The notes under the pieces are model-generated. The model ran no database searches. It worked only from the letters and a program-made list of their open reading frames with translations, and was not told where the DNA came from. Below, one piece after another: positions 2,889-56,584 of a stretch of 64,000 nucleotides of DNA. Positions within the stretch are counted from its first letter, which is position 1. Every line of letters starts with the position of its first letter. A program made the translations under genes and the position numbers. Origin of the DNA: a virus (lineage: Duplodnaviria; Heunggongvirae; Uroviricota; Caudoviricetes); IMG/VR virus record IMGVR_UViG_3300010396_000003, positions 64,001-128,000 of that record. One strand, written 5' to 3'.

Positions 2889-3759
2889 TGCATGCCGTCG
2901 CATGTTTCCAAAGTTCATCCCGCGGTACGAGCGCGTCAAGAATAGTGCCATGGCATGGAATGACAATTAGCTTTTCGTGTGGCTTGGGATTAAATGAATC
3001 GGTTGTGTAAACCTTCTCAAAATGAGAACTCAACCGATCCATAGCATGATTTGAGAATATGCCATGCGTTACATAGAGATAGAGCTTTTCGGTATAACCC
3101 TGCTTACGGAATTCCTCTGCAAGTCCGATGAACGTACCGCCGCCATCACAAATATCATCTACGAGCAAAAGCGAGTCGGCACCTTCAAAATGAAATTCCT
3201 CGCGTTTAGGAACAACAAACTCCAACAGTTTCCCCGTTTGTGGATCGCGTTTTTTATCGCATTGTAGATAGGCACCGCCAAAAGCGTAACGACTTGCGCC
3301 CTTGTCCGGCAGGACAACGACCGGCCTCCCTATATTTTCCTGGGCGACATTGATTATCGGCTTCGGAGAAATATTCTTAAGTTTGGTTGGCATAAAGCCG
3401 AATGCAACCTGCGAGTGGATATCCAATGTCACAATCTTTTTAAGTGGCAGCGCAAGAAGAAAATCACAGAATACTTCTAATCCAAAACAATCACCCGGAC
3501 GAAATGAGCGGTCAGCCCTGGCGTATGGGAAATAAGGAAGTACTAGCATCGGAAGTGTAATTTCAGAGATCGCATCAATTAGTTGGGCAACCGCCATTAT
3601 CTCGCCATCTTTAATCGTGGCGAATACTATCACGTTGCTCGCAGTTCCTATTAACTGGAGCTGTTCGGGAAACAAACGCACCTGAACTTCGCCGGCTGGA
3701 TAACGAAACATCTCAAACTTCGTTCCTGCGTCTTCCGGATATTTAATTGTGCAAATCAC
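2881..3759 (-). CDS. PRPP synthetase-like protein; probable ADPR-PP synthetase (Adps) of NARP1
   Basis: FRYPAGEVQV, LPYFPYARADR, LDIHS, VLPDKGA, LLLVDDICDGGGTF, LYVTHGIFS; directly coupled to a NAMPT homolog. Confidence 0.85.
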   Translation of the reverse strand: MICTIKYPEDAGTKFEMFRYPAGEVQVRLFPEQLQLIGTASNVIVFATIKDGEIMAVAQLIDAISEITLPMLVLPYFPYARADRSFRPGDCFGLEVFCDFLLALPLKKIVTLDIHSQVAFGFMPTKLKNISPKPIINVAQENIGRPVVVLPDKGASRYAFGGAYLQCDKKRDPQTGKLLEFVVPKREEFHFEGADSLLLVDDICDGGGTFIGLAEEFRKQGYTEKLYLYVTHGIFSNHAMDRLSSHFEKVYTTDSFNPKPHEKLIVIPCHGTILDALVPRDELWKHATACNV

Positions 3760-8724: not shown

Positions 8725-9603
8725 TTAATCCGAAACATCCTCTACTGTCAAGGCACACCGGCAATTGGGATGCTCGGTGGGCATAATCGCACCACTTGGA
8801 AATGGCTTGCCAAGTTCAACAACCGCATCGCTATTTTGTTCGCATTCTGGACAGGTTCTTTCGTCTTCCGCTGTCAACCAACGAACGGTTTTAACGATCC
8901 CCGACTTCTTCCACATATCAAAATTGCCGTGCGTTTGTGCGTTAATTACCTCGGTTCGCGCAATCATTTCAGCGCGCGCCTCACTAAAGATACCCTGCTT
9001 CGTTTGATCATGAAGTGCTTTCTGAATATGAGCCTTAATCTCTTCCATCCTAAGTTCTTTTTGGAATGACTCCGCTACAATGTCGTGGATTTTTTCTCTG
9101 GTTGTATCGCTAATTGCCCATCGCGCATCTGGATTCTTCACAAGATCGCCGCTCTTGTTGTATTTCATTCCGACCATTTCGGCGGCACGCTTCACAGCAT
9201 AGTCGTGTGCAATCTCATTTGCGGCGGCAATAATTCCGCTGGGCGCGTATTCGATCTGCAACATGCCTTGACCAACACCAGAAAGAGAGGCATTAACAAG
9301 TTGCTCTTGTACTTCCGACGGGAGAGAGTTCCATTCCTGTTCCATCGCTTTGAGAATTTTATCGGCGATCTCCGTGGCTTCTGCATCGGAAATACGCTTC
9401 GTTAAAACGTCATATGAGGTTTTATTGGGTCCGGCTACTCCATTGGCTTCGCGAAATGCGAATTCTTCTGCTTCCTTGTCGGATTTTCCCTGCTTTTTTG
9501 CGCGGTGATACGCGCTGTTCCATACGTGACTCCACTGACGCCGGCGCTTGGCGCCGCCCGTAACATACTTCGGTACATCGTGTCCGTCGTCCGCGTAAGG
9601 CAT
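8725..9603 (-). CDS. Phage head morphogenesis protein (MuF/SPP1 gp7-like) with ChaB-like N-terminus
   Basis: RAEMIARTEVINA, WLTAEDERTCPEC, HPNCRC; start MPYADD at 9603 (TAATG overlap). Confidence 0.9.
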   Translation of the reverse strand: MPYADDGHDVPKYVTGGAKRRRQWSHVWNSAYHRAKKQGKSDKEAEEFAFREANGVAGPNKTSYDVLTKRISDAEATEIADKILKAMEQEWNSLPSEVQEQLVNASLSGVGQGMLQIEYAPSGIIAAANEIAHDYAVKRAAEMVGMKYNKSGDLVKNPDARWAISDTTREKIHDIVAESFQKELRMEEIKAHIQKALHDQTKQGIFSEARAEMIARTEVINAQTHGNFDMWKKSGIVKTVRWLTAEDERTCPECEQNSDAVVELGKPFPSGAIMPTEHPNCRCALTVEDVSD

Positions 9604-11201
9604 TAGGATAATTTCTCGTCTTCCAGACTTTTGTGACCAAATAGGACCTGGGCATTCCACTTATCCCCGGAAGGCTGCATGGACAGCATTCCACCTTCAT
9701 CCAAATCAAGAACATCCACGTCGTTATATATATGATCAGAGAGCTCACGAAGATTTGATCCGGAAAGAACGATTAGGAACGGACCACGGCCTGCCTTTGC
9801 CTTCTGCTGAATCTCACCTATAAGCGAGAGGAATCGTTTCCGGAATGAGTTACGTGATTCTCCTCCCTCTGGCACTTGATTTGGATTATCCATTAACAAA
9901 CGAACTTTCTTCTTATTGGCATATTTCTGTTGTCCAGCAAGTATGCCAAGGTTCCACGTCTTAGCTCTATTGTCGATGACAATCTGCGGATTATAGATAG
10001 ATCCACTTTGAATAATTTCTGCCGTTTCGCGGTGGCGCTTCAAGTCACTGCAATATATTTTAGTGATCGGCGTTTCTTTTAGATATTGTTCCGCTGTCAA
10101 TAATTTTACGCGTCCGTCGTCTGAAAGTGGGAAATCCAACCAGCCATCAGAGCGTTTAATTGGATCCAACGCCGTTTTACCATGACGCATCATAAAAATC
10201 GTCTTGCGACTTCCTTCTCCAGAAATCGCTTTTTGAAGTGGAGCGGCGCCGATACGATAAGCAGCCTCTAAAAGCTCATTCTCCGGCTCGTACCAATCAC
10301 TGCAATATTCATCGGCCGGATATGGAAGCCGATCTGAATCTGCCGGTTTCTCTTTCCCTCCATCCCATTTAATAAAATAATCATTTCTACAGCTTTTTTT
10401 GTCATCACCAAGATATTCACAATTCGCGCAACAGGAACCGCCCTTAGGAACTCGCATTGCAGCGTGATGGTTTGGCGGCAATTCCGGCATGGCTAACTTT
10501 TCTTCCGATGTACCCTTACTATACTTTTCCAATTCCGTTTGAGATTTATCTAAATGAGAAAAAACAAGGTTCTTCAAGATAATCCTATCGCCCTCGAGCG
10601 GATTAACAAGTTTTAGATATTGCGCTTCCGTTCCTGGCTTGAGATATCCAACCGTAATGTGCGGACGATATTCTTTATGTGTGCTTATATGATCTAGTTC
10701 TGCTAAATTGCGGTGGAGCGCATGGAGTGCATCACTGTCTACTGGTATGATTAGCGGTATGCCATCTGGACCCTCTGGGAATGTGTCATAGCCGAGAAGC
10801 GTTGCCTCTATTTCCCCAGTATTCTTTGTAATCTTATTCACATCTTCCGGAGTTATTTCTTTTTGTAAACCAAATAGCACGGTGACGTGCGGTTCTTTTT
10901 CTCGTCCCTTTAATGTAAAGTCTGTATCGAGAATCGGAACCTCAAGAACATTCTTAGCATCTTCCGGAGATAAATTAAATTGAACTGAATGATATTCACG
11001 TTTTTTTAGTGTGTCACTCATAGTTTTAACCAAACGGTCGACTTCGAGCTGCGCCCGATCCTGTTGACGCTTGAAAACTTTATGTATGGCATCTTTAATA
11101 TGAAAGATTGCCTGATGGGACTCCGGCGTTAATTTAGCCGGATCAATACGCGAGCCCCGTTTTTTTGCTAACTCGTTTGAATATTTTTCCATTGGGCACA
11201 T
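9603..11201 (-). CDS. Fusion of 2H phosphoesterase (Acb1-like), Cys-rich segment and histidine phosphatase
   Basis: Two HxT motifs (PHVTVLFG, PHITVGY); CCANCEYL...C...YCSDWY; RHGKT, YCSDLKRHRETA, PEGGES; start could be 11192. Confidence 0.85.
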   Translation of the reverse strand: MCPMEKYSNELAKKRGSRIDPAKLTPESHQAIFHIKDAIHKVFKRQQDRAQLEVDRLVKTMSDTLKKREYHSVQFNLSPEDAKNVLEVPILDTDFTLKGREKEPHVTVLFGLQKEITPEDVNKITKNTGEIEATLLGYDTFPEGPDGIPLIIPVDSDALHALHRNLAELDHISTHKEYRPHITVGYLKPGTEAQYLKLVNPLEGDRIILKNLVFSHLDKSQTELEKYSKGTSEEKLAMPELPPNHHAAMRVPKGGSCCANCEYLGDDKKSCRNDYFIKWDGGKEKPADSDRLPYPADEYCSDWYEPENELLEAAYRIGAAPLQKAISGEGSRKTIFMMRHGKTALDPIKRSDGWLDFPLSDDGRVKLLTAEQYLKETPITKIYCSDLKRHRETAEIIQSGSIYNPQIVIDNRAKTWNLGILAGQQKYANKKKVRLLMDNPNQVPEGGESRNSFRKRFLSLIGEIQQKAKAGRGPFLIVLSGSNLRELSDHIYNDVDVLDLDEGGMLSMQPSGDKWNAQVLFGHKSLEDEKLS

Positions 11202-12786
11202 GCCTTCCTATCGATCGCCCACCGCCGGCAGCCTGCGAGGGACGAGAACCGCGGCTGTTCTTGCCTCCAGGATTACTGCTTCCTGGCGGTCGGTTCGGTG
11301 GAACATTTGCATTTTCGTTTAATGTCGCTTTTCCATCTTCATCGACGTCAACACCTCCCAATGCTGGTGCCATGCCGAGTGGAACAAATCCGGTTCCAGT
11401 GATAATGCCGAGTTGATCTGCTTCCGGTTCCGGTCGCAAATCTTCACCTAAACGTTCACGTGCTTCATTTGGTGTTAATGTTCCCTTGCTTACCAACATC
11501 GTGATAGCGGCAGCATTCTTAAGCGGATCCGGCTCGCTATATGGATCCACGGCGAATTCATATTCGGTCAGACCCATTTTCTTCTGAATAATAAAGTCGA
11601 TAAATCCCTTAAGCCAAAGAATGTATGGCAGCGTTCCTTCTGACTCGGCAGATTCACTCGATGCTTTCCCTTCTGTGCGGATCATCTTAATAAGACGCTG
11701 CGGACTCGTGCCGTAACCGAAACAAATTTCACGAATATGTTTTTCGTCGTAAAGACCGGCGAGTAGCGGCTCTTTGGAGAATACGATCTGATCATTTTTA
11801 CCTGGTTCATTAAATCCTTGCACCAAGCGCCACTGATTACGAGCAGCGAGGTTGCCAGCAAGTTCCGAATTCATCCAATCCATTGCTTCATTGATCTTCG
11901 CAACTGGTGTTCCTCTTGGAACTACCTGTACCACACCCGGTACGGAACCTTCCGTGTAATATGCCAAAGCAAATTCAAGACGCTTCATGCCAACTTTAAT
12001 TTCCGGAGCAAGCTGCTCGGTCGGACTCATACCATAAAGCTGGGAGGAAACCGAGTTTCGCGGCACAATGTTACGCGGTTTGTAGATCAACTGGTCCGTT
12101 GTCAAGTTTAAATACGGCATGCCCCACCAGTTTTGGGCATAAGCAGGACTCGGCGGTATTGGAGTAAAACCGTTTTCATCAATATACCGCGTGATCATTT
12201 CACCGCGGATGACGGCAAGTTCTGCAATTTCTCCGCTAAATGTTTTGCGTACCAATACTGAAGGAGCATCGATGACAAGCAAATCATCCAGTAATGGGCG
12301 CAACCATTCTTGCCAGTTGTGCTCACGATCAGGATATTCAAAGAAACGATTGAGCTTCAAAAGTGTATCGTCATCTTTTCCACGCGCCAACGTATCCTTT
12401 CTGCGCTCACCAGGGCGCGCACGGAGTTGAATTTCCCAAGCGCAACGTTCAATCGCATCTTTGACATTTTCGATACAAATCTTTGCAAGCGGATAGGTAG
12501 CCATTGCCTTTAGGTCGGCCGCTGAGTATTCAGCGTCGGCGCGCGGCGTCCAAATAAGGTTTTCACCGGCCCAAAACTGGAATCCCTTAGGCTCGGAACC
12601 AGCCGGTCCCATTGGGTTGACCGGCTGCATCGGTGAGTACCAATCTTTTGTATCGATATTGCGAATTTCGTTGGGTGGACGTTGGTAAAGCGATTGACCG
12701 TAACGCGTGAGAGCGTCAACAAATTGACCAATCGGTTTTATAGTAATACCGTTACGATTTGCCATTTCGCGCGGATTGTAAGGCAA
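11143..12786 (-). CDS. Phage portal protein
   Basis: 547 aa; LLDDLLVIDA, YGMSPTEQ, YYTEGSVPG, ICFGYGTSPQRL, LTPNEARERLG. Confidence 0.9.
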   Translation of the reverse strand: MPYNPREMANRNGITIKPIGQFVDALTRYGQSLYQRPPNEIRNIDTKDWYSPMQPVNPMGPAGSEPKGFQFWAGENLIWTPRADAEYSAADLKAMATYPLAKICIENVKDAIERCAWEIQLRARPGERRKDTLARGKDDDTLLKLNRFFEYPDREHNWQEWLRPLLDDLLVIDAPSVLVRKTFSGEIAELAVIRGEMITRYIDENGFTPIPPSPAYAQNWWGMPYLNLTTDQLIYKPRNIVPRNSVSSQLYGMSPTEQLAPEIKVGMKRLEFALAYYTEGSVPGVVQVVPRGTPVAKINEAMDWMNSELAGNLAARNQWRLVQGFNEPGKNDQIVFSKEPLLAGLYDEKHIREICFGYGTSPQRLIKMIRTEGKASSESAESEGTLPYILWLKGFIDFIIQKKMGLTEYEFAVDPYSEPDPLKNAAAITMLVSKGTLTPNEARERLGEDLRPEPEADQLGIITGTGFVPLGMAPALGGVDVDEDGKATLNENANVPPNRPPGSSNPGGKNSRGSRPSQAAGGGRSIGRHVPNGKIFKRVSKKTGLAY

Positions 12787-14040: not shown

Positions 14041-14116
14041 TGGTGCGGGCGGTGAGAGTCGAACTCACGATCCTCTGATTAAGAGTCAGATGCTTTAGCC
14101 ACTGAGCTACGCCCGC
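14041..14116 (-). tRNA. tRNA-Lys(CTT)
   Basis: Cloverleaf GCGGGCG/CGCCCGC-ACCA; TCTGA-CTCTTAA-TCAGA; T loop TTCGACT. Confidence 0.95.
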
Positions 14117-14117
14117 A

Positions 14118-14191
14118 TGGTAGGCCCGGCAGGTGCTGCCCCTGCGTCCCCTGATTAAAAGTCAGGTAGTCTACTGTTGACTTACGGACCC
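14118..14191 (-). tRNA. tRNA-Lys(TTT) with non-canonical T loop
   Basis: GGGTCCG/CGGGCCT-ACCA; CCTGA-CTTTTAA-TCAGG; T arm GCAGG-GGCAGCA-CCTGC. Confidence 0.9.
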
Positions 14192-14193
14192 GA

Positions 14194-14409
14194 TCAATTA
14201 CCGCCGCACGCGATGCTGGCATTTGCCGTCATGCAAGCTTCACGTACCTTTCGAACGGCTGCGGTTTGATCGGCGCTTGGAAGAGTATTCGCGACAATAA
14301 CCGCAGCCAAATGTTTACCAGCCTCGCGGATCGCCTCGAACTTAGGAAGTTGGTCTGGCGTCGGTGCGTGGTAGGTAAACCAGTTGTCGATATTGACTTC
14401 AGTTATCAT
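14194..14409 (-). CDS. Acb2/Tad1-like helical hairpin protein (candidate signal sponge)
   Basis: 71 aa from ATG 14409 (AAAGGA RBS): IDNWFTYHAPTPDQLPKFEAIREAGKHLA...SADQTAAVRKVREACMTANASIA. Confidence 0.6.
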   Translation of the reverse strand: MITEVNIDNWFTYHAPTPDQLPKFEAIREAGKHLAAVIVANTLPSADQTAAVRKVREACMTANASIACGGN

Positions 14410-14431
14410 CACAATTCCTTTCAAAGTAAAC

Positions 14432-14564
14432 GAGGCGGCGTACATCCTCTTTACCGCCGCCCCCTCTGTTTAGATCTATTCCCGGAGGCAGCCGATACAC
14501 AGGAGACTAAGCCCGCATCGACTGCCTCGGTTCCGTGATCAGACGCCATACACGGCTGATCACG
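14432..14564 (-). ncRNA. Candidate structured RNA, three consecutive hairpins
   Basis: Stems 14534-14542/14556-14564 (9 bp), 14485-14496/14517-14528 (12 bp, one GU) and about 14432-14440/14455-14463. Confidence 0.45.
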
Positions 14565-14574
14565 AAGGTCAATA

Positions 14575-14650
14575 TGGCGGGTCAGGATGGATTCGAACCA
14601 CCGAGTCTCGGTTTGGAGGCGAGCAGTTTCGCCGCTAAGCTTACTGACCC
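14575..14650 (-). tRNA. tRNA-Trp(CCA)
   Basis: GGGTCAG/CTGACCC-GCCA; CTCGC-CTCCAAA-CCGAG (31:39 C-C mismatch); T loop TTCGAAT. Confidence 0.9.
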
Positions 14651-14679: not shown

Positions 14680-15105
14680 CTAAAAAGGAATGTCTTCGTC
14701 AGAAATCTCAGATCCGCCTCCACCGCCTACTGGATCGGCATCGTAATGATCTTGCGCCGGCGCCGCGGTCCGTTCCGGCTTATCGCCAAGCATCTTCATG
14801 GTTGAAGCTACAATCTCAAATGCCGTGCGCTTTTCTCCGCTGCGCTTGTCTTCCCATTGGCGAGATTGAATTTTACCTTCGACGTAAACAAGCGAACCCT
14901 TCTTTAAGTATTGCTGACAAATTTCTGCCAACTTACTCCAGGCAATGATCTTGTGCCACTCGATGTGTTTCTGCTTTTGCCCTGAGCGATCTTTAAATGT
15001 TTCGTCTGTGGCGATTGAGAAATTACAAACGGCTGAGCCGCCAGAAGTGTAACGAGTCTCGGGATCTTTACCGAGACGGCCGATAAGAAAAACTTTGTTT
15101 AGCAT
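14680..15105 (-). CDS. ssb: Single-stranded DNA-binding protein
   Basis: MLNKVFLIGRLGKDPETRYT, EWHKI, YLKKGSLVYVEGK, C-terminal DEDIPF. Confidence 0.97.
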   Translation of the reverse strand: MLNKVFLIGRLGKDPETRYTSGGSAVCNFSIATDETFKDRSGQKQKHIEWHKIIAWSKLAEICQQYLKKGSLVYVEGKIQSRQWEDKRSGEKRTAFEIVASTMKMLGDKPERTAAPAQDHYDADPVGGGGGSEISDEDIPF

Positions 15106-15128: not shown

Positions 15129-15228
15129 TGGAGCGTCTGGCGAGATTTGAACTCGCATCAACCAGTTAGAACTGGCTGCTCTGTCGGTTTTAGAGACCGA
15201 TGCTTTCACCCGGTTAAGCTACAGACGC
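15129..15228 (-). tRNA. Amber suppressor tRNA(CTA) with long variable arm, 100 nt
   Basis: GCGTCTG/CAGACGC-TCCA; D stem GCTT/AAGC; TCGGT-CTCTAAA-ACCGA; 27-nt variable region with an 8-bp stem; GCGAG-TTCAAAT-CTCGC. Confidence 0.9.
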
Positions 15229-15237
15229 CTTGTTCTC

Positions 15238-15260
15238 TTAGGAACAATTTTTGTTCCTAA
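15238..15260. other. Perfect 10-bp inverted repeat inside the tRNA array
   Basis: TTAGGAACAA-TTT-TTGTTCCTAA. Confidence 0.8.
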
Positions 15261-15266
15261 AGAAAT

Positions 15267-15311
15267 TGGAGCGGGGTGTGGCTTTGAACCACGTCTTTCG
15301 ACGCACCCCGC
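15267..15311 (-). ncRNA. Mini-tRNA (45 nt), Gly-like acceptor, no D or anticodon arm
   Basis: GCGGGGT-G-CGTC-GAAA-GAC(G)-TGG-TTCAAAG-CCA-C-ACCCCGC-TCCA. Confidence 0.75.
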
Positions 15312-15312
15312 G

Positions 15313-15358
15313 TGGCAGGGGCTTCGGATTTGATCCACGCGCTTTCACGCGAGCCCCT
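15313..15358 (-). ncRNA. Mini-tRNA (46 nt), Trp-like acceptor, no D or anticodon arm
   Basis: AGGGGCT-C-GCGT-GAAA-GCGC-GT-GGA-TCAAA-TCC-GA-AGCCCCT-GCCA. Confidence 0.75.
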
Positions 15359-15359
15359 A

Positions 15360-15412
15360 TGGTGCCGGCGTCCCATTCAAGAGAGCGCGGCGCTAGCTTC
15401 CGCACCGCCGGC
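15360..15412 (-). ncRNA. Mini-tRNA (53 nt), D-armless, CTA centred in its single loop
   Basis: GCCGGCG-GTGCGG-AAGCTAGCG-CCGCGC-TCTC-TTGAAT-GGGA-CGCCGGC-ACCA. Confidence 0.7.
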
Positions 15413-15928
15413 ATTGGTGTGCGCGGTAGGAGTCGAACCTACCTCGATCAATTTAGAGTTGACCTGTCCAGCCGCTGGACCACGCGCACATAAACTGGCA
15501 CGCCCGGTCGGATTCTCACCGACAACTTCTCTGTTTAGATCAGAGCACTCTCGTAGTTGAGTTACGGGCGTATCTTTGTAAACTCGATAATTTGAGAGCA
15601 CCGATCGCGCAACTCCGCTAATCGGCGCCGTACAAATGGCTGTAAATCTTTCTGCTTCGGGAAAGTCTGGTTCAAACCAGCAATAATGTTGAATCTGAGA
15701 TACGGCGAGTTTGCCGGCAACACGTTTAAGTGCGGCCAGATCGGGCACACCAATCAGAACGTGGTTGTTCCAACACTCATTCTGTTGGACTGTATAAGGC
15801 TTATGCGTGAAGCGCATAGTCGCCTGTTCTACTGCATGATTGGATTGGATGATTTGATGCTGGATGGGAAGATCCATCCGAATGAAGGTATAAACGTAAG
15901 GTTCTTGAGAAATCTAGGTAAATGTCAT
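15377..15928 (-). CDS. Pth2-like peptidyl-tRNA hydrolase; in-frame TAG at codon 5; frame continues through the tRNA genes
   Basis: ATG15928 ACA TTT ACC TAG ATT TCT CAA GAA CCT TAC GTT TAT ACC TTC ATT CGG ATG15877 gives MTFT*ISQEPYVYTFIRMDLP..QSNHA..WFEPD..FTAICTAP; ORF track shows only 15377-15877. Confidence 0.75.
15415..15489 (-). tRNA. Amber suppressor tRNA(CTA), A73
   Basis: GTGCGCG/CGCGCAC-ACCA; D stem GTCC/GGAC; GTCAA-CTCTAAA-TTGAT; GTAGG-TTCGACT-CCTAC. Confidence 0.9.
15496..15571 (-). tRNA. Amber suppressor tRNA(CTA), A1-U72, G73, atypical T loop
   Basis: ACGCCCG/CGGGCGT-GCCA; D stem ACTC/GAGT; CTCTG-ATCTAAA-CAGAG; GTCGG-TGAGAAT-CCGAC. Confidence 0.85.
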
Positions 15929-15934
15929 GCCGCG

Positions 15935-15962
15935 AATGTATCACGGAACAAAGCCTTGTCAA
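15935..15962 (-). promoter_or_regulatory. Sigma70 promoter with extended -10; predicted start at the ATG (leaderless)
   Basis: TTGACA (15962-15957), 16 nt ending TGA, TACATT (15940-15935), 6 nt, ATG 15928. Confidence 0.7.
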
Positions 15963-31228: not shown

Positions 31229-31435
31229 TTAGATGTTGCGGTTTAAATACGCGGTTAGCGTTGCCATGAAATAAAATGCTTCGATAAGGAAAAGAGTAGA
31301 AGCGAAATTCTGTATCGCCTTATCGCGGTATAGAAACGCGATGAGGAAAATAAAGAATGTGCAAAGTAGCGCGATTGCGATAGCCGGAAGTGTGGGAACG
31401 AAAAGACTGGCAAGAAGCGAAATTACGGTTTGCAT
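31229..31435 (-). CDS. Small membrane protein
   Basis: Two hydrophobic segments; GAGG RBS. Confidence 0.65.
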   Translation of the reverse strand: MQTVISLLASLFVPTLPAIAIALLCTFFIFLIAFLYRDKAIQNFASTLFLIEAFYFMATLTAYLNRNI

Positions 31436-31464
31436 TGTTGGTGCCTCGCTTTCGATTAGAGTCT

Positions 31465-31504
31465 AAAAAAAAATCGCGCGATACGGGTTAGCGTATCGCG
31501 CGAT
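31465..31504 (-). terminator. Rho-independent terminator
   Basis: CGCGCGATACG/CGTATCGCGCG stem followed by a T tract. Confidence 0.85.
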
Positions 31505-31515
31505 TAGGGAGGCGA

Positions 31516-31782
31516 CTAGGCCGCCTGTAGGTAACGCTGTACGGCGGGCAACGAACGATGTGCGTTGACAAATTGCGTCAAGCGCTTGGTTTGCGCGGCG
31601 CGTTCCTTCGGCGAGCGCTCTTTTTGGAACGTCTTGTTGGTGTGGGCGCGCAGAGCAGCGAAGGTACGGGTTAGGTTTAACTGAGTCTTTGTGAGTGTGG
31701 AGGCGGGTTTCGTTGCTTTCTTGGTTGCTTTCATTGTGTCTCGCTTTCGTTGTGGCGCGTTGTGCTTTGATCGGGCTTGCAC
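31516..31782 (-). CDS. Small basic protein
   Basis: Lys/Thr/Ala-rich; likely start MKATKK; ends YLQAA. Confidence 0.6.
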   Translation of the reverse strand: MQARSKHNAPQRKRDTMKATKKATKPASTLTKTQLNLTRTFAALRAHTNKTFQKERSPKERAAQTKRLTQFVNAHRSLPAVQRYLQAA

Positions 31783-31799
31783 GTTTGCGCTACTAAGAC

Positions 31800-31828
31800 A
31801 TTATGAGGTTAGACGGTAACTTTGTAAA
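31800..31828 (-). promoter_or_regulatory. Sigma70-like promoter
   Basis: TTTACA, 17 nt, CATAAT. Confidence 0.6.
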
Positions 31829-40013: not shown

Positions 40014-40454
40014 TTGACAACGCTCTCGCAAATTATTTCAAGGGAAAGAAATGAGAGCCTTAAGCTGGCTCTATATTGGGTGTGCCTTCGTAGTGGCGTT
40101 TATGGGCGATCCGAGAGCCATAATTCCATTCGCAATTGGTGTTTGTTGGGTGTGGTTAGATTGGAGAAATCAATGACAGCCAAAGAAATGAAACTCGCGG
40201 CTTATTTCTTACGCTTAGCGGCAGAATCGTATTCCAATCATACTTGCAACGATATTGATTCCGAAGCGATACTCGCGGCAAATTTTACCGAGTTAGAAGA
40301 CCGTAAATTCGGCGTTAAAGTAGCAGAAAGCCTCGGTTATACGAAGTATGCCGATAGAGTCGAATGGGCAAACCGTGGACTTGCCGGCTTACAGGATTGC
40401 GAGGCGATGGAATTTCTCGCGGAAATGTTGGAGCAACATGCCGAGGGGCTTTAA
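40014..40454 (+). CDS. Hypothetical protein
   Basis: ORF track; likely start MTAKEMK. Confidence 0.55.
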   Translation: MTTLSQIISRERNESLKLALYWVCLRSGVYGRSESHNSIRNWCLLGVVRLEKSMTAKEMKLAAYFLRLAAESYSNHTCNDIDSEAILAANFTELEDRKFGVKVAESLGYTKYADRVEWANRGLAGLQDCEAMEFLAEMLEQHAEGL

Positions 40455-40782
40455 ATCGTGTCCGGCCGAGACCAAAGAGAAGCGCGCTAATAAAGAATTT
40501 GTCGACCGAAGATCACAGGTTGTGCGCGACAGTATCGGCATACGGCACGTTCTACTTCATGGTAAGGATAAATCGGCACAACGTAAAAAAATTTTTGAGC
40601 ACTACCATCATCGCTGTTGCGTGTGTCGAGCGTATTGCCCGGAGAAAGATGGTGAATGGCATCACGCGCATCGATGCGATTGTATCGAATGTAGCGAAAT
40701 TAGGTGCAGTCAGTGGAAATCCAATTGTCATCATCACAGAACAATAGGATTCCAGAGGTTAGCCAATGAGGAAGTGCAATAA
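40348..40782 (+). CDS. HNH-like nuclease
   Basis: RCCVC...EWHH...C..CHH. Confidence 0.5.
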   Translation: MPIESNGQTVDLPAYRIARRWNFSRKCWSNMPRGFKSCPAETKEKRANKEFVDRRSQVVRDSIGIRHVLLHGKDKSAQRKKIFEHYHHRCCVCRAYCPEKDGEWHHAHRCDCIECSEIRCSQWKSNCHHHRTIGFQRLANEEVQ

Positions 40783-41266
40783 GCATGGCACGATAAGAAC
40801 CGGTGATGGGCGTTGCTTTTGGTGTGCAGTTGAATCGGGAGAGATAGAACCTCCCCCTGAATTAAACGCTCCCACAAAAACAGCACAAAGCGAACAATGG
40901 AAGATCGAATGCCTGAAATACTTCGGCCGCGTGCTAACCGGCGAGCTCGCACACTGGTGTGATAGTTGGGACGGTATGCCGATCGATGAAACCGTCGATG
41001 AGATTCAATCCTGCAATTGTTCCGATATCGACAAGTCCAATATACCTCCGCCCGCACCAAAGAAATTAGATTTAGTGGACGCCGAAGGGAATAGTTTAAG
41101 CGAACAGATTACAGTCACACACGATGGCGAAGCATTTGATGAATCTGGATCACTGATAAAAATGTCCAGCACAAAACTGGGAACCTATATTCGAACAAAA
41201 CTTAACGGATCCAATGAACTGATTGAACTCCAAGGCGGCCAGGCTGTTGTTGTTTCAAAATGGTGA
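40766..41266 (+). CDS. Hypothetical protein
   Basis: ORF track. Confidence 0.7.
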   Translation: MRKCNKHGTIRTGDGRCFWCAVESGEIEPPPELNAPTKTAQSEQWKIECLKYFGRVLTGELAHWCDSWDGMPIDETVDEIQSCNCSDIDKSNIPPPAPKKLDLVDAEGNSLSEQITVTHDGEAFDESGSLIKMSSTKLGTYIRTKLNGSNELIELQGGQAVVVSKW

Positions 41267-55455: not shown

Positions 55456-55719
55456 ATGAAGATTGAATTATCTCGGGATAAAACCAGCATTATTCTAACC
55501 GGAATAGTTTCTATTCGGATCCCAGTTGAAGAATTAATACACGTTTTGCGTGAGTGTGATCCATTGCCTCCAAGGTTAAAACAGGTCCGGGATTTAGTGC
55601 GGCAACATAGGTGTGATAAAGAAATTGCTTCTGAATTGGGAATTTCAGTGCGTACCGTAAAATTACATGTATCACGATTAAAAGAAATTTGTGGTGAAAA
55701 CGACCGTTACCGACTATAA
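55456..55719 (+). CDS. LuxR-type HTH protein
   Basis: LPPRLKQVRDLV...DKEIASELGISVRTVKLHVSRL. Confidence 0.85.
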   Translation: MKIELSRDKTSIILTGIVSIRIPVEELIHVLRECDPLPPRLKQVRDLVRQHRCDKEIASELGISVRTVKLHVSRLKEICGENDRYRL

Positions 55720-55741
55720 TCACCATTCCAAAGGAGAGTTA

Positions 55742-56179
55742 ATGAAAACTTCCGGCGTAATTGCCATAACTGCTGTCTCAGTAATTATTCTAGCTTTTGC
55801 CGTTGTTCCGGGATTCAATTATGTCAAGACCAAGGTTCAGTCGCCGGCCGCCGCAAAGGATAGCTGCGTCGCCGGCAAAGACGAAATATGTCCCAATGCG
55901 GACTTTCTTGGTCAGATTGACCGTATTCAGGCCCTAAACGATGATATTGTGAAGCTCGCCGGTAATAACGATTACAAGCGGATTAATTCCAAAATCGCGG
56001 ATGATCAGGCGATGATCGAAGGAATACGCGACAACCTCTCAACGGCGATCCGGCAGCCAGGTAGTGGCGTTCCCTCGAATTATAAGTGGGATGGTCAGAA
56101 GAAGAAGTTTGTGCTCGATCCAAATCTGCCCGTTCCGAGTGCTCCGGCACCAACAGCCACCCCAACACAAAAGAAGTAG
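55742..56179 (+). CDS. Membrane-anchored periplasmic coiled-coil protein ending in TAG
   Basis: AAAGGAG RBS; N-terminal TM segment, helical middle, Pro-rich tail. Confidence 0.8.
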   Translation: MKTSGVIAITAVSVIILAFAVVPGFNYVKTKVQSPAAAKDSCVAGKDEICPNADFLGQIDRIQALNDDIVKLAGNNDYKRINSKIADDQAMIEGIRDNLSTAIRQPGSGVPSNYKWDGQKKKFVLDPNLPVPSAPAPTATPTQKK

Positions 56180-56212
56180 CGTTGGTTTGTTTTTCTTGGC
56201 ATACCTCTAGGT

Positions 56213-56584
56213 ATGCTGAATGCCCTTTCCAAACTTGGTGCACATAGCTGGCATCACGCCGAATTCTGGTTCTTTGTTGCCATCCTGCTATTTATTCTCT
56301 ATGTGCCACCAGCAGCAGCGCAGAAATTATCGGCTGTTCAGGACTTCGTTGAGGCACACTTCGGGGATAGTATCGGCCTTTATATTCTTCACCTTGGCAT
56401 TGGGTTGATTATTTTGGCGGGTGTGTTTCCAGAAATGACGCATGTCGACCAAATTGGTCAATCGCTCGTCTTGGCTGCAATGGGAGTACTTAAACTGACG
56501 CGGACAAACGGGAATGGAAACGGTCATGGACCTGAGTCGGTACCGGCGTCGAATCCTCCTCCTGCACCGGCGCAAACTCCATAA
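56213..56584 (+). CDS. Multi-pass membrane protein (holin-like topology)
   Basis: About three hydrophobic segments; no well-spaced RBS; in frame with the upstream gene. Confidence 0.6.
   Translation: MLNALSKLGAHSWHHAEFWFFVAILLFILYVPPAAAQKLSAVQDFVEAHFGDSIGLYILHLGIGLIILAGVFPEMTHVDQIGQSLVLAAMGVLKLTRTNGNGNGHGPESVPASNPPPAPAQTP

What the first reader, a model, noticed from the sequence alone, without database searches (positions are those of the whole stretch)
15129..15571. Three different amber-suppressor (CUA) tRNAs in one array in a genome that is not TAG-recoded
Seen: three cloverleaves with CUA anticodons but unrelated bodies: A1-U72/G73 with an atypical TGAGAAT T loop (15496-15571); G1-C72, U2-A71/A73 (15415-15489); and G1-C72, C2-G71, G3-C70/U73 with a long variable arm (15129-15228). 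ORFs tile well under code 11, and TAG acts as a normal stop (e.g. 5689, overlapping the next RBS). Known: suppressor tRNAs are reported in stop-codon-recoded phages. Inference: several suppressors charged by different synthetases may make readthrough robust, insert different residues, or disturb host UAG termination.
Basis: partly seen in the sequence, partly recalled or inferred. Interest (0 to 1): 0.9.

Follow-up and report, generated by a model that had tools for sequence, protein, structure and literature searches.

The report
Amber-suppressor tRNA trio gating one gene
A complete soil phage that uses the normal genetic code carries three genuine, unrelated tRNAs that read the stop codon UAG, and their conserved partner is the gene directly upstream, a peptidyl-tRNA-hydrolase-like gene that has one UAG just after its start and so can be made in full only when UAG is read through.

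Summary
Three real tRNA genes with CUA anticodons lie on the minus strand at 15129-15228, 15415-15489 and 15496-15571. The genome is complete (152 kb, terminal repeats) and is not TAG-recoded: TAG ends 42 of 229 tiled ORFs.

The tRNAs directly follow a PTH2-fold gene (15572-15928). That gene starts at a leaderless-type promoter and reads ATG ACA TTT ACC TAG ATT. Its first conserved strand lies after the TAG and before any other usable start codon.

Across 20 distinct loci with this gene, 17 have one TAG at codons 3-10. Thirteen of those 17 have CUA tRNAs within 3 kb, and none of the three ungated loci does. Cultured phages ME3, Arash, GAP32 and RsoM2USA share the gated gene.

Suppressors in the same phage belong to different cross-phage lineages with different acceptor-end features, which fits charging by different synthetases.

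Three CCA-ended mini-tRNAs between the suppressors are also conserved.

This scan has noted the same pairing on other DNA. I found no paper describing it; the XacN1 authors found no target for their suppressors, and the RsoM2USA paper names none. Expression, charging and readthrough are all untested.

The parts
15935..15962 (-). Sigma-70-type promoter: TTGACA, 16-nt spacer, TG-extended TACATT. It ends 6 nt before the ATG, so the predicted transcript starts at or next to the AUG (leaderless).
   Evidence: 10 of 12 consensus matches, TG present. The same TTGACA / about 17 nt / -10 / 4-9 nt / ATG layout occurs in L002, L003, L004, L005, L008, L009, L012 and L015.
15914..15928 (-). Start of the gated gene: ATG ACA TTT ACC TAG. 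The amber codon is codon 5 (15914-15916) and is followed by ATT.
   Evidence: Relatives read ATG ACN TAG ATY.
15572..15928 (-). PTH2-fold (peptidyl-tRNA-hydrolase-like) gene. It has 119 codons if the TAG is read through. There is no in-frame stop before the first tRNA, and the frame stays open to 15377.
   Evidence: Pfam PTH2 gives only E 0.027 and 15.1 bits. HMMER finds 397 relatives. The AlphaFold2 model has pLDDT 89.1. The top 15 Foldseek PDB matches, apart from one PTH2-like Agrobacterium protein of unknown function (2gax), are PTH2 structures, TM 0.67-0.74 for the best. Searches show the open frame.
15496..15571 (-). Suppressor tRNA 'SupC': CUA anticodon, A1-U72, C2-G71, G73, T loop UGAGAAU, D loop without GG, encoded CCA.
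   Evidence: (48.7 bits). Same lineage as L003:2603, L004:3394 and L007:5303.
15415..15489 (-). Suppressor tRNA 'SupB': CUA anticodon, G1-C72, U2-A71, A73, canonical T loop, encoded CCA.
   Evidence: (50.1 bits).
15360..15412 (-). Mini-tRNA 1 (53 nt): 7-bp acceptor stem, a hairpin, a T-arm-like hairpin (loop UUGAAU), A, CCA.
15313..15358 (-). Mini-tRNA 2 (46 nt): acceptor stem starting A1-U, a GAAA-tetraloop hairpin, a T-like hairpin, G, CCA. It lies 1 nt after mini-tRNA 1.
15267..15311 (-). Mini-tRNA 3 (45 nt): acceptor stem, a GAAA-tetraloop hairpin, a T-like hairpin (UUCAAAG), U, CCA. It lies 1 nt after mini-tRNA 2.
15229..15266 (-). Spacer holding an A/U-rich 10-bp hairpin between mini-tRNA 3 and SupA.
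   Evidence: Sequence read; not analysed further.
15129..15228 (-). Suppressor tRNA 'SupA': CUA anticodon, type II with a variable-arm hairpin of about 9 bp, U73, encoded CCA.
   Evidence: (62.6 bits). It matches L004:3536-3635, which has the same anticodon stem and arm base.
14041..14650 (-). Further tRNAs on the same strand downstream: Trp-CCA (14575-14650), Lys-UUU with an odd T loop (14121-14191, found by Rfam only) and Lys-CUU (14041-14116). The SSB gene (14680-15105) lies between them and SupA.

Best explanation
The three CUA tRNAs are working amber suppressors that belong to a conserved phage module. They are not a sign of a changed genetic code.

How the module is built:
- One promoter makes a transcript that begins at, or next to, an AUG.
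- Codon 5 of that reading frame is UAG (codon 3 in most relatives).
- The frame encodes a PTH2-fold, peptidyl-tRNA-hydrolase-like protein. Its first core strand lies after the UAG and before any usable restart codon.
- The same transcript then runs straight into the suppressor tRNAs and three CCA-ended mini-tRNAs.

How it most likely works: the hydrolase-like protein is made in full only when phage suppressor tRNA has been processed, charged by a host synthetase and has outcompeted release factor 1. The tRNAs are the key and the UAG is the lock.

Why three: the residue at the UAG position is not conserved, so any amino acid will do. The three tRNAs come from three old lineages with different acceptor-end features (A1-U72/G73; A73; long arm/U73). 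Carrying several makes it likely that at least one is charged whatever the host or its state.

Shown here: the tRNAs are real and under structural selection; the code is standard; the fold is PTH2; the TAG, its sequence context and the promoter are conserved; the TAG and CUA tRNAs co-occur.

Inferred, not shown: co-transcription, expression, charging, readthrough, and what the hydrolase-like protein acts on.
For: 1. The tRNAs are real and conserved.

2. The code is standard in a complete genome.

3. The upstream gene needs the TAG to be passed.
- Family conservation begins at YVYxFxRxDLP, window residues 11-21. This lies after the TAG at codon 5 and before the next Met at residue 18.
- Residues 11-17 form a core strand with pLDDT about 97.
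- Pfam PTH2 matches only when this stretch is included.
- The fold is PTH2.

4. Comparative evidence.
- Of 20 distinct loci, 17 have exactly one early in-frame TAG and none in the core.
- CUA tRNAs lie within 3 kb in 13 of those 17, and in 0 of the 3 ungated loci. Ungated L006 has an ordinary Shine-Dalgarno plus GTG start.
- The base after the TAG is A in 14 of 17 and G in 3 of 17.
- The codon before the TAG is ACN in 11 of 17.

5. The leaderless-type promoter is conserved.

6. In the whole genome only this gene combines such a promoter, an ATG and an early TAG. No other TAG junction has family support.

7. Suppressors in the same phage fall into different cross-phage lineages with different discriminators. 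Loci with several suppressors: the window and L004 have three; L003, L005, L007 and L015 have two.

8. The phage encodes no release factor, CCA-adding enzyme or Gln/Glu synthetase, so the tRNAs must use host enzymes.
Against: - Nothing is experimental.
- TAG ends 18% of the phage's own genes, and these show no excess of nearby backup stops: the median extension is 18 codons, against 11.5-13 for TAA and TGA. Strong suppression should therefore be costly, which argues for weak or brief suppression.
- Four gated loci show no CUA tRNA in the DNA I could see: L009, L016, GAP32 and RsoM2USA. One is a 1.2-kb contig. For RsoM2USA the paper reports a CUA tRNA elsewhere in the genome.
- The codon after the TAG is AUG, AUU or AUC in most loci, so restart after a two-codon mini-ORF is an alternative way to make the protein.
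- The PTH2 'GK' lysine aligns with a gap and Gln in this family, so hydrolase activity is not assured.
- The loci are related to each other, so the counts are not independent events.
Confidence: 0.6

Rival explanations
1. The suppressors act mainly in trans. They cause readthrough of host (or rival-phage) UAG stops, either as takeover or as counter-defence. The UAG-gated hydrolase-like gene is then a gauge or feedback element: the more suppression, the more enzyme is made to clear the resulting stalled or dropped peptidyl-tRNA, or to discharge the suppressors. This is compatible with the best explanation, not exclusive of it.
For: Two or three suppressors of different identity seem more than one non-essential codon needs. 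The gated product has the fold of an enzyme that clears a by-product of faulty termination. The tRNAs lie next to a near-complete phage tRNA set of 39 or more genes, a feature of phages that reshape translation.
Against: There is no sign that the phage protects its own 42 TAG-ended genes with backup stops. No host genome is available to test for TAG-ended target genes. The one conserved feature tied to the tRNAs is the cis TAG.
Confidence: 0.2
2. The TAG is a true stop. ATG-ACN-TAG is a two-codon mini-ORF at the 5' end of a leaderless RNA, comparable to the lambda bar minigenes (from memory). The hydrolase-like protein is made by restart at the adjacent AUY/AUG codon, and the CUA tRNAs serve some other purpose.
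For: The codon after the TAG is ATC, ATT or ATG in 13 of 17 gated loci. The mini-ORF sits exactly at the predicted transcript start. A two-codon ORF placed in front of a peptidyl-tRNA-hydrolase-like gene recalls minigene-induced peptidyl-tRNA drop-off (my own knowledge, not tested).
Against: Four gated loci have GTT, GTA, AAC or AAT after the TAG; none of these is a usable start codon. CUA tRNAs are rare genes, yet they accompany the TAG in 13 of 17 loci and are absent from all 3 ungated loci. An A after UAG is also the context known to favour suppression (my own knowledge).
Confidence: 0.08
3. The arrangement is left over from a TAG-recoded ancestor or from a mobile cassette, and the tRNAs or the gene are decaying and without function.
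For: TAG-recoded phages carry CUA tRNAs (bioRxiv 10.1101/2021.08.26.457843, listed). SupC has a non-canonical T loop and D loop.
Against: Each gated gene has exactly one TAG, always before the conserved core, in a conserved nucleotide context, across proteins only 23-57% identical. The tRNA stems covary strongly. The odd T and D loops of the SupC lineage are themselves conserved across phages. There are no in-frame TAGs elsewhere in the genome.
Confidence: 0.05

Closest known systems
CUA suppressor tRNAs reported in standard-code jumbo phages: Xanthomonas phage XacN1 (PMC5852040) and Ralstonia phage RsoM2USA (PMC8504454)
   Same: These are phages with large tRNA sets, a normal code, and one or two CUA tRNAs. 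RsoM2USA also carries a homologue of the gated gene, reading M-L-TAG-I and left unannotated in GenBank.
   Different: The XacN1 authors read through 18 amber stops in silico and found no target. The RsoM2USA paper only suggests many possible targets. Here a specific conserved target is identified, and there are three suppressors from three lineages plus mini-tRNAs in one transcription unit.
Suppressor tRNAs of TAG-recoded ('code 15') phages: crAss-like, Lak and others (bioRxiv 10.1101/2021.08.26.457843; PMC13037316)
   Same: A phage-encoded tRNA with a CUA anticodon reads UAG as sense.
   Different: Those genomes carry in-frame TAGs in many genes, often late ones, and gain coding density under code 15. 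This genome gains 0.8 points, less than the TGA and TAA controls. It ends 42 genes with TAG and has a single in-frame TAG.
prfB (release factor 2) autoregulation at an in-frame UGA, and engineered suppressor-tRNA feed-forward gates (PMC7969014)
   Same: One early in-frame stop codon makes the output of a translation-related gene depend on how well that stop is recognised. The synthetic gate uses an amber codon together with a co-expressed suppressor tRNA.
   Different: prfB uses a +1 frameshift and no dedicated tRNA (my own knowledge). The engineered gate is artificial. Here the lock and several keys are natural and appear to be on one transcript.
Archaeal and eukaryotic peptidyl-tRNA hydrolase 2 (Pfam PF01981; PDB 3erj, 2zv3, 1xty, 1q7s)
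   Same: The fold is the same (TM 0.67-0.74, Foldseek probability 1.0). The motif R-x-D-L ... Q-x-x-H-A is shared.
   Different: The Pfam score of 15.1 bits is below the 23-bit cut-off. The PTH2 'GK' lysine is not aligned to a lysine. The substrate is unknown.
tRNA-like punctuation elements: mitochondrial tRNA punctuation and plant t-elements (my own knowledge). Mini-tRNA elements were also noted elsewhere by this scan (unchecked).
   Same: The three 45-53-nt elements have an acceptor stem, a T-arm-like hairpin and NCCA. These are the parts recognised by tRNA end-processing enzymes.
   Different: They sit between tRNAs that already supply processing sites. They carry an extra GNRA-type hairpin. 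They recur specifically in this suppressor module.

Membership tests
tRNA (Rfam RF00005), amber-suppressor type | Scores above the family's gathering threshold and folds as a cloverleaf | tested here: met
   62.6, 50.1 and 48.7 bits against 29. Minimum-free-energy cloverleaves.
tRNA (Rfam RF00005), amber-suppressor type | Seven-nucleotide anticodon loop with U33, CUA at positions 34-36 and a purine at 37 | tested here: met
   The loops read CUCUAAA, CUCUAAA and AUCUAAA. The CUA column is nearly invariant in 17 homologous tRNAs.
tRNA (Rfam RF00005), amber-suppressor type | Stems maintained by compensatory change across relatives | tested here: met
   96.3% of cells paired, 20 of 21 pairs changed on both sides, 0 of 500 shuffles as high; slid controls give 29-45% paired.
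tRNA (Rfam RF00005), amber-suppressor type | Expressed, aminoacylated and able to compete with release factor 1 | not testable with these tools
   No RNA run holds the stretch. Needs tRNA sequencing, acid gels and reporter assays.
TAG-recoded (code 15) phage | Clear gain in coding density or ORF length when TAG is read as sense (5-10% in published screens) | tested here: not met
   0.889 to 0.897, smaller than the TGA (0.899) and TAA (0.903) controls.
TAG-recoded (code 15) phage | In-frame TAGs in many genes, and TAG not used as a terminator | tested here: not met
   TAG ends 42 of 229 ORFs, including several over 500 aa. Only one supported in-frame TAG.
PTH2 peptidyl-tRNA hydrolase (PF01981) | PTH2 alpha/beta fold | tested here: met
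   Model pLDDT 89.1. PTH2 structures fill the top 15 PDB matches apart from one PTH2-like Agrobacterium protein of unknown function (2gax); TM 0.67-0.74 for the best.
PTH2 peptidyl-tRNA hydrolase (PF01981) | Sequence score above Pfam's gathering cut-off | tested here: not met
   15.1 bits against 23, E 0.027. The profile search against PDB sequences gives E 0.013.
PTH2 peptidyl-tRNA hydrolase (PF01981) | Catalytic residues retained | tested here: inconclusive
   R-x-D-L and Q-x-x-H-A are shared. The 'GK' lysine of PTH2 aligns with a gap and Gln. An invariant-like E-P-D is present. Which residues are catalytic is from my memory of the literature.
Amber-gated PTH2-like gene with its own CUA tRNA (seen before by this scan; not found in papers) | A single in-frame TAG within the first 10 codons, upstream of the first conserved strand | tested here: met
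   Codon 5 here. Present in 17 of 20 loci.
Amber-gated PTH2-like gene with its own CUA tRNA (seen before by this scan; not found in papers) | CUA tRNA(s) on the same strand within a few kb, in a standard-code genome | tested here: met
   Three tRNAs start 1 nt after the last conserved codon. Seen in 13 of 17 gated loci and 0 of 3 ungated loci.
tRNA-like processing (punctuation) minihelices | Seven-bp acceptor stem, T-arm-like hairpin and single-stranded NCCA end | tested here: met
   Twelve elements in eight loci fold independently into the same Y shape. Acceptor cells are paired in 83 of 84 cases, but I chose the elements by their fold, so this count is partly circular.
tRNA-like processing (punctuation) minihelices | Cleaved by RNase P and 3'-end processing enzymes | not testable with these tools
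   Needs RNA end mapping or in vitro cleavage.

The most novel reading that the evidence does not exclude
The module is a self-contained monitor of the cell's tRNA and translation state. One leaderless transcript carries the lock (UAG at codon 3-5), several keys of different amino-acid identity, and CCA-ended mini-tRNAs. In this soil clade the gene has no stop codon before the first tRNA, so cutting out that tRNA with RNase P would leave a message with no stop codon, ending exactly at codon 119. Output of the PTH2-like enzyme would then depend on the balance between tRNA processing, charging, release factor 1 activity and ribosome rescue. The enzyme would act on peptidyl- or aminoacyl-tRNA, or on the mini-tRNAs, for example when host defences attack tRNAs.
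Probability: 0.15. Interest if true: 0.9.

Novelty: new variant of a known kind. Interest (0 to 1): 0.74.

Why it matters
- It gives a concrete, testable target for phage suppressor tRNAs in normal-code phages. The XacN1 authors searched for one and found none (PMC5852040), and the RsoM2USA paper names none (PMC8504454).
- It describes what looks like a natural one-codon translational switch, with several keys of different identity.
- It explains why the gene is missing or truncated, and one tRNA mislabelled, in GenBank records of cultured phages: RsoM2USA, Arash, GAP32, Serratia BF and Yersinia fHe-Yen9.
- These tRNAs are naturally selected amber suppressors with unusual elbows and acceptor ends. 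They could be useful starting points for genetic-code expansion.
- Cultured relatives in Acinetobacter, Salmonella, Cronobacter and Ralstonia make the idea directly testable.

Tried and rejected
- The word-index protein search found only the window's own protein.
- The first locus search gave one match, L001, with no tRNAs; I take it as a chance match.
- Alignment A1 was too diverse to seed a locus search. A2 worked.
- Nucleotide and tail-protein searches of the phage collection found no close relative.
- None of the three suppressors is a recent copy of another tRNA of this phage; the best identity is 62-71%.
- I considered that the long arm of SupA carries a decoy anticodon, because its loop reads CUA. 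I dropped the idea: the orthologue L004:3536 has ACU there.
- I considered an initiator-like tRNA reading UAG as a start. I dropped it: none of the three has the three G-C pairs in the anticodon stem.
- Sequencing runs: no RNA holder is listed. The only holders are DNA contigs, two of which may be the source sample.
- My pattern finder for mini-tRNAs has a background of 0-4 hits per shuffled genome and missed some true elements, so it is not a clean detector.
- MAFFT did not align the mini-tRNAs consistently with their structure, so I built no covariance model.
- The phage genome holds no match to RF-1, the CCA-adding enzyme family or the Gln/Glu synthetase family.
- Other same-frame ORF pairs joined by a TAG (40364-41266, 55691-56584, 31229-31801, 22350-23723, 9603-11312) have no family spanning the TAG.
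- The scan of bacterial genomes found only ungated versions, in two MAGs: Ca. Angelobacter (the same locus as L006) and Agitococcus. This gives no usable host assignment for this phage.
Full report
**1. The observation**

ARAGORN finds five tRNAs in the window, two of them with a CUA anticodon, at 15129-15228 and 15415-15489 on the minus strand. Rfam's tRNA model finds seven. These include a third CUA tRNA at 15499-15571 and a Lys-UUU tRNA at 14121-14191 that ARAGORN misses.

The three CUA tRNAs score 62.6, 50.1 and 48.7 bits against a threshold of 29. All three fold as cloverleaves on their own. All have seven-base anticodon loops with U33-CUA-A37 and are followed by an encoded CCA.

- The first tRNA after the gene (15496-15571, here 'SupC') has A1-U72, G73, a T loop UGAGAAU and a D loop without GG.
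- The second (15415-15489, 'SupB') has G1-C72, U2-A71 and A73.
- The third (15129-15228, 'SupA') is a long-arm tRNA with U73.

The stretch is letter-for-letter identical in contigs from two soil-metagenome runs. Both may be source samples, so this argues against an assembly slip but is not independent biology.

**2. The genetic code**

The window lies in a 152,425-bp virus record with direct terminal repeats, rated complete.

- A greedy tiling of ORFs covers 0.889 of the genome under code 11.
- Reading TAG through raises this to 0.897. That is less than the same trick with TGA (0.899) or TAA (0.903).
- TAG ends 42 of 229 tiled ORFs, among them ORFs of 596, 543, 539, 524 and 510 residues.

The condition that would have made the tRNAs ordinary, a TAG-recoded genome, is therefore excluded for the whole genome.

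The phage carries at least 41 tRNA genes: 39 by ARAGORN plus two found by Rfam only. It carries no release factor, CCA-adding enzyme or Gln/Glu synthetase.

**3. What the tRNAs are attached to**

A promoter with 10 of 12 consensus positions (TTGACA, 16 nt, TG-extended TACATT) ends six bases before an ATG at 15928. The transcript should therefore begin at or next to the AUG. The frame reads ATG ACA TTT ACC TAG ATT and then continues for 114 more codons to 15572, one base before SupC.

A HMMER scan of 1.84 billion representative proteins finds 397 relatives. Their conserved core begins with YVYxFVRQDLP..Q.VQS.HA, which is window residues 11-32. This lies after the TAG but before the next methionine at residue 18.

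- Pfam's PTH2 model matches only weakly (E 0.027, 15.1 bits, cut-off 23), and only if this stretch is included.
- An AlphaFold2 model built on the family alignment is confident (pLDDT 89.1), with residues 11-17 as a core strand.
- Archaeal and human PTH2 structures fill its top 15 PDB matches, apart from one PTH2-like Agrobacterium protein of unknown function (2gax). TM-scores are 0.67-0.74 for the best.
- A profile of the family against PDB sequences shares R-x-D-L and Q-x-x-H-A with a PTH2. The PTH2 'GK' lysine, however, falls on a gap and Gln.

So the fold is PTH2, but membership by sequence threshold is not met and catalytic competence is open.

**4. Comparative test**

I examined 20 distinct loci carrying this gene:
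- the window;
- 11 IMG/VR contigs;
- 3 metagenome contigs (L015, L016, L017);
- 1 further MAG contig, L020 (the other MAG contig found, L019, is the same locus as IMG/VR L006);
- four cultured phages.

Seventeen have exactly one in-frame TAG at codons 3-10, always before the first conserved strand, and none in the core. The commonest form is ATG ACN TAG ATY. The base after the TAG is A in 14 and G in 3. The codon before it is ACN in 11.

CUA tRNAs lie within the fetched 2.5-3 kb in 13 of the 17. The four exceptions are:
- a 1.2-kb contig (L016);
- L009;
- GAP32;
- RsoM2USA, whose paper reports a CUA tRNA elsewhere in the genome.

The three loci without the TAG (L006/L019, L017, L020) have ordinary Shine-Dalgarno starts and no CUA tRNA. 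In L006 the tRNA after the gene has the body of the SupC lineage but reads UCU.

The same leaderless-type promoter layout recurs in eight relatives.

In this genome no other gene combines such a promoter, an ATG and an early TAG. No other TAG junction has family support.

**5. Why three**

Seventeen type-I CUA tRNAs from these loci align well. They keep 96.3% of stem cells paired, with changes on both sides at 20 of 21 pairs, while the CUA stays fixed.

Nearest-neighbour analysis shows that suppressors of one phage are closer to suppressors of other phages than to each other:
- SupC groups with L003:2603, L004:3394 and L007:5303. All have A1-U72, G73 and odd T loops.
- SupA matches the long-arm L004:3536, with the same anticodon stem and U73.
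- Other lineages carry U73, or G73 with a GUGGUGU D arm.

Loci with several suppressors always combine different discriminators. The window and L004 have three; L003, L005, L007 and L015 have two.

None is a recent copy of a sense tRNA of this phage.

The residue at the TAG position is not conserved, so the simplest reading is redundancy of charging: any one of several host synthetases can supply a working key.

From textbook identity rules, A1-U72/G73 with U35 suggests Gln or Trp enzymes. A very long variable arm suggests an anticodon-blind enzyme such as SerRS or LeuRS. These assignments are inference only.

**6. Other conserved parts of the module**

Between SupB and SupA lie three 45-53-nt elements, packed 1-2 nt apart. 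Each has a 7-bp acceptor stem, a stable hairpin (twice with a GAAA loop), a T-arm-like hairpin, one unpaired base and CCA.

Elements of the same Y shape sit beside the suppressors in L002, L003, L004, L005, L007, L012 and L015. Their acceptor stems pair in 83 of 84 cells although the sequences differ. I picked them by their fold, so that figure is partly circular.

The conservative reading is that they are tRNA-top-half mimics handled by tRNA end-processing enzymes. What they add between genuine tRNAs is unexplained.

In the window and in every relative where a tRNA abuts the gene (L002-L006, L008, L009, L015), the reading frame has no stop before the tRNA and ends inside or beyond it. Here the last conserved codon ends at 15572 and the tRNA starts at 15571. 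RNase P cutting would therefore leave a message with no stop codon. In the cultured phages the gene ends normally.

**7. Mechanism and rivals**

Best explanation (about 0.6): the tRNAs are the keys of an amber-locked, co-transcribed PTH2-like gene, and their diversity gives robustness of charging.

Rivals:
- The tRNAs act mainly on host stops, with the gated gene as gauge or feedback (about 0.2). This is compatible with the best explanation.
- The TAG is a true stop, and translation restarts after a two-codon mini-ORF (about 0.08). The AUY codon after the TAG favours this. Four loci with non-start codons there, and the co-occurrence with CUA tRNAs, count against it.
- The arrangement is an evolutionary relic (about 0.05). 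Conservation and covariation count against it.

A caution for all suppression readings: the phage's TAG-ended genes have no excess of backup stops. Suppression is therefore probably weak, brief or tolerated.

**8. Comparison with what is known**

Suppressor tRNAs are well described in TAG-recoded phages (papers listed). They are mentioned in passing for normal-code jumbo phages.

- The XacN1 authors read through all 18 amber stops in silico and found no target.
- The RsoM2USA authors only supposed many targets.
- A Klebsiella phage paper lists possible roles.
- Searches combining PTH2, bacteriophage and suppressor tRNA returned nothing, and two further searches found no description of the gated gene.

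In GenBank the gene is unannotated or truncated in RsoM2USA, Arash, GAP32 and others. Arash's CUA tRNA is labelled tRNA-Phe.

This scan has noted the same tRNA-gene pairing on other DNA. Those notes were leads, and the counts above are my own.

**9. Verdict**

The finding is a clear example, with three suppressors and three mini-tRNAs, of a conserved amber-gated module that I could not find in the literature. All functional steps remain untested.

Noticed in passing
window 15377-15928 (-); also L002, L003, L004, L005, L006, L008, L009, L015: The PTH2-like reading frame has no stop codon before the first tRNA. Its last conserved codon ends 1 nt before the tRNA's 5' end, and the frame runs on through two tRNAs to 15377. 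Excision of the tRNA would leave a message with no stop codon. In two relatives (L003, L008) the first stop is the TAA that overlaps the tRNA's CUA anticodon.
   Followed up: partly
window 15267-15412 (-); L002:3467-3516, L003:2549-2600, L004:3478-3529, L005:3385-3437, L007:4507-4556, L012:3334-3437, L015:2878-2927 and 3014-3061: CCA-ended mini-tRNAs of 45-53 nt (acceptor stem, GNRA-type hairpin, T-arm-like hairpin) recur beside the CUA tRNAs in eight loci. Their role is unknown.
   Followed up: partly
window 14121-14191 (-); L002:3522-3602, L003:2678-2750, L015:2936-3008, L022:4092-4167: A tRNA-Lys(UUU) repeatedly sits next to the CUA tRNAs. The window's copy has a non-canonical T loop and is missed by ARAGORN. 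Lys-UUU is a known target of anticodon nucleases (my own knowledge), which may hint at a counter-defence role for the array.
   Followed up: no
L012:3441-3522 and L012:3531-3602: One tRNA-like gene has an anticodon stem extended to about 8 bp (loop GUGGUAG). Its neighbour carries CUA in an eight-base anticodon loop (CCUCUAGU).
   Followed up: no
L004:3536-3635 and L024:1989-2062 (Acinetobacter phage ME3): Two CUA tRNAs have C instead of the near-universal U at position 33 (loop CCCUAAA).
   Followed up: no
L022:3801-3875 (Salmonella phage Arash); L021 (RsoM2USA) 2501-2833; hits H36-H47: Annotation errors in public records. Arash's CUA tRNA is labelled tRNA-Phe and its hydrolase gene is truncated. 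The homologous gene is unannotated in RsoM2USA, Serratia phage BF, Yersinia fHe-Yen9 phages and several Erwinia phages.
   Followed up: partly
L013:1-190: A permuted tmRNA (Rfam RF04321, 92.6 bits) lies on the same phage contig as a gated hydrolase-like gene and a CUA tRNA.
   Followed up: no
window 9603-11201 (-): A 532-aa protein next to the portal gene matches an RNA-ligase family over residues 137-257 (phrog_755, E 8e-10). It is a possible tRNA-repair function in a tRNA-rich phage.
   Followed up: no
window 15229-15266 (-): A 10-bp A/U-rich hairpin (UUAGGAACAA / UUGUUCCUAA) separates the last mini-tRNA from the long-arm suppressor. It has no U tail, so it is probably not a terminator.
   Followed up: no
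L009:3350-3422: In a gated locus with no CUA tRNA in view, the tRNA after the gene has the A1-U72 body of the SupC lineage but an odd anticodon loop, GCAGUCU, with C at position 33.
   Followed up: no
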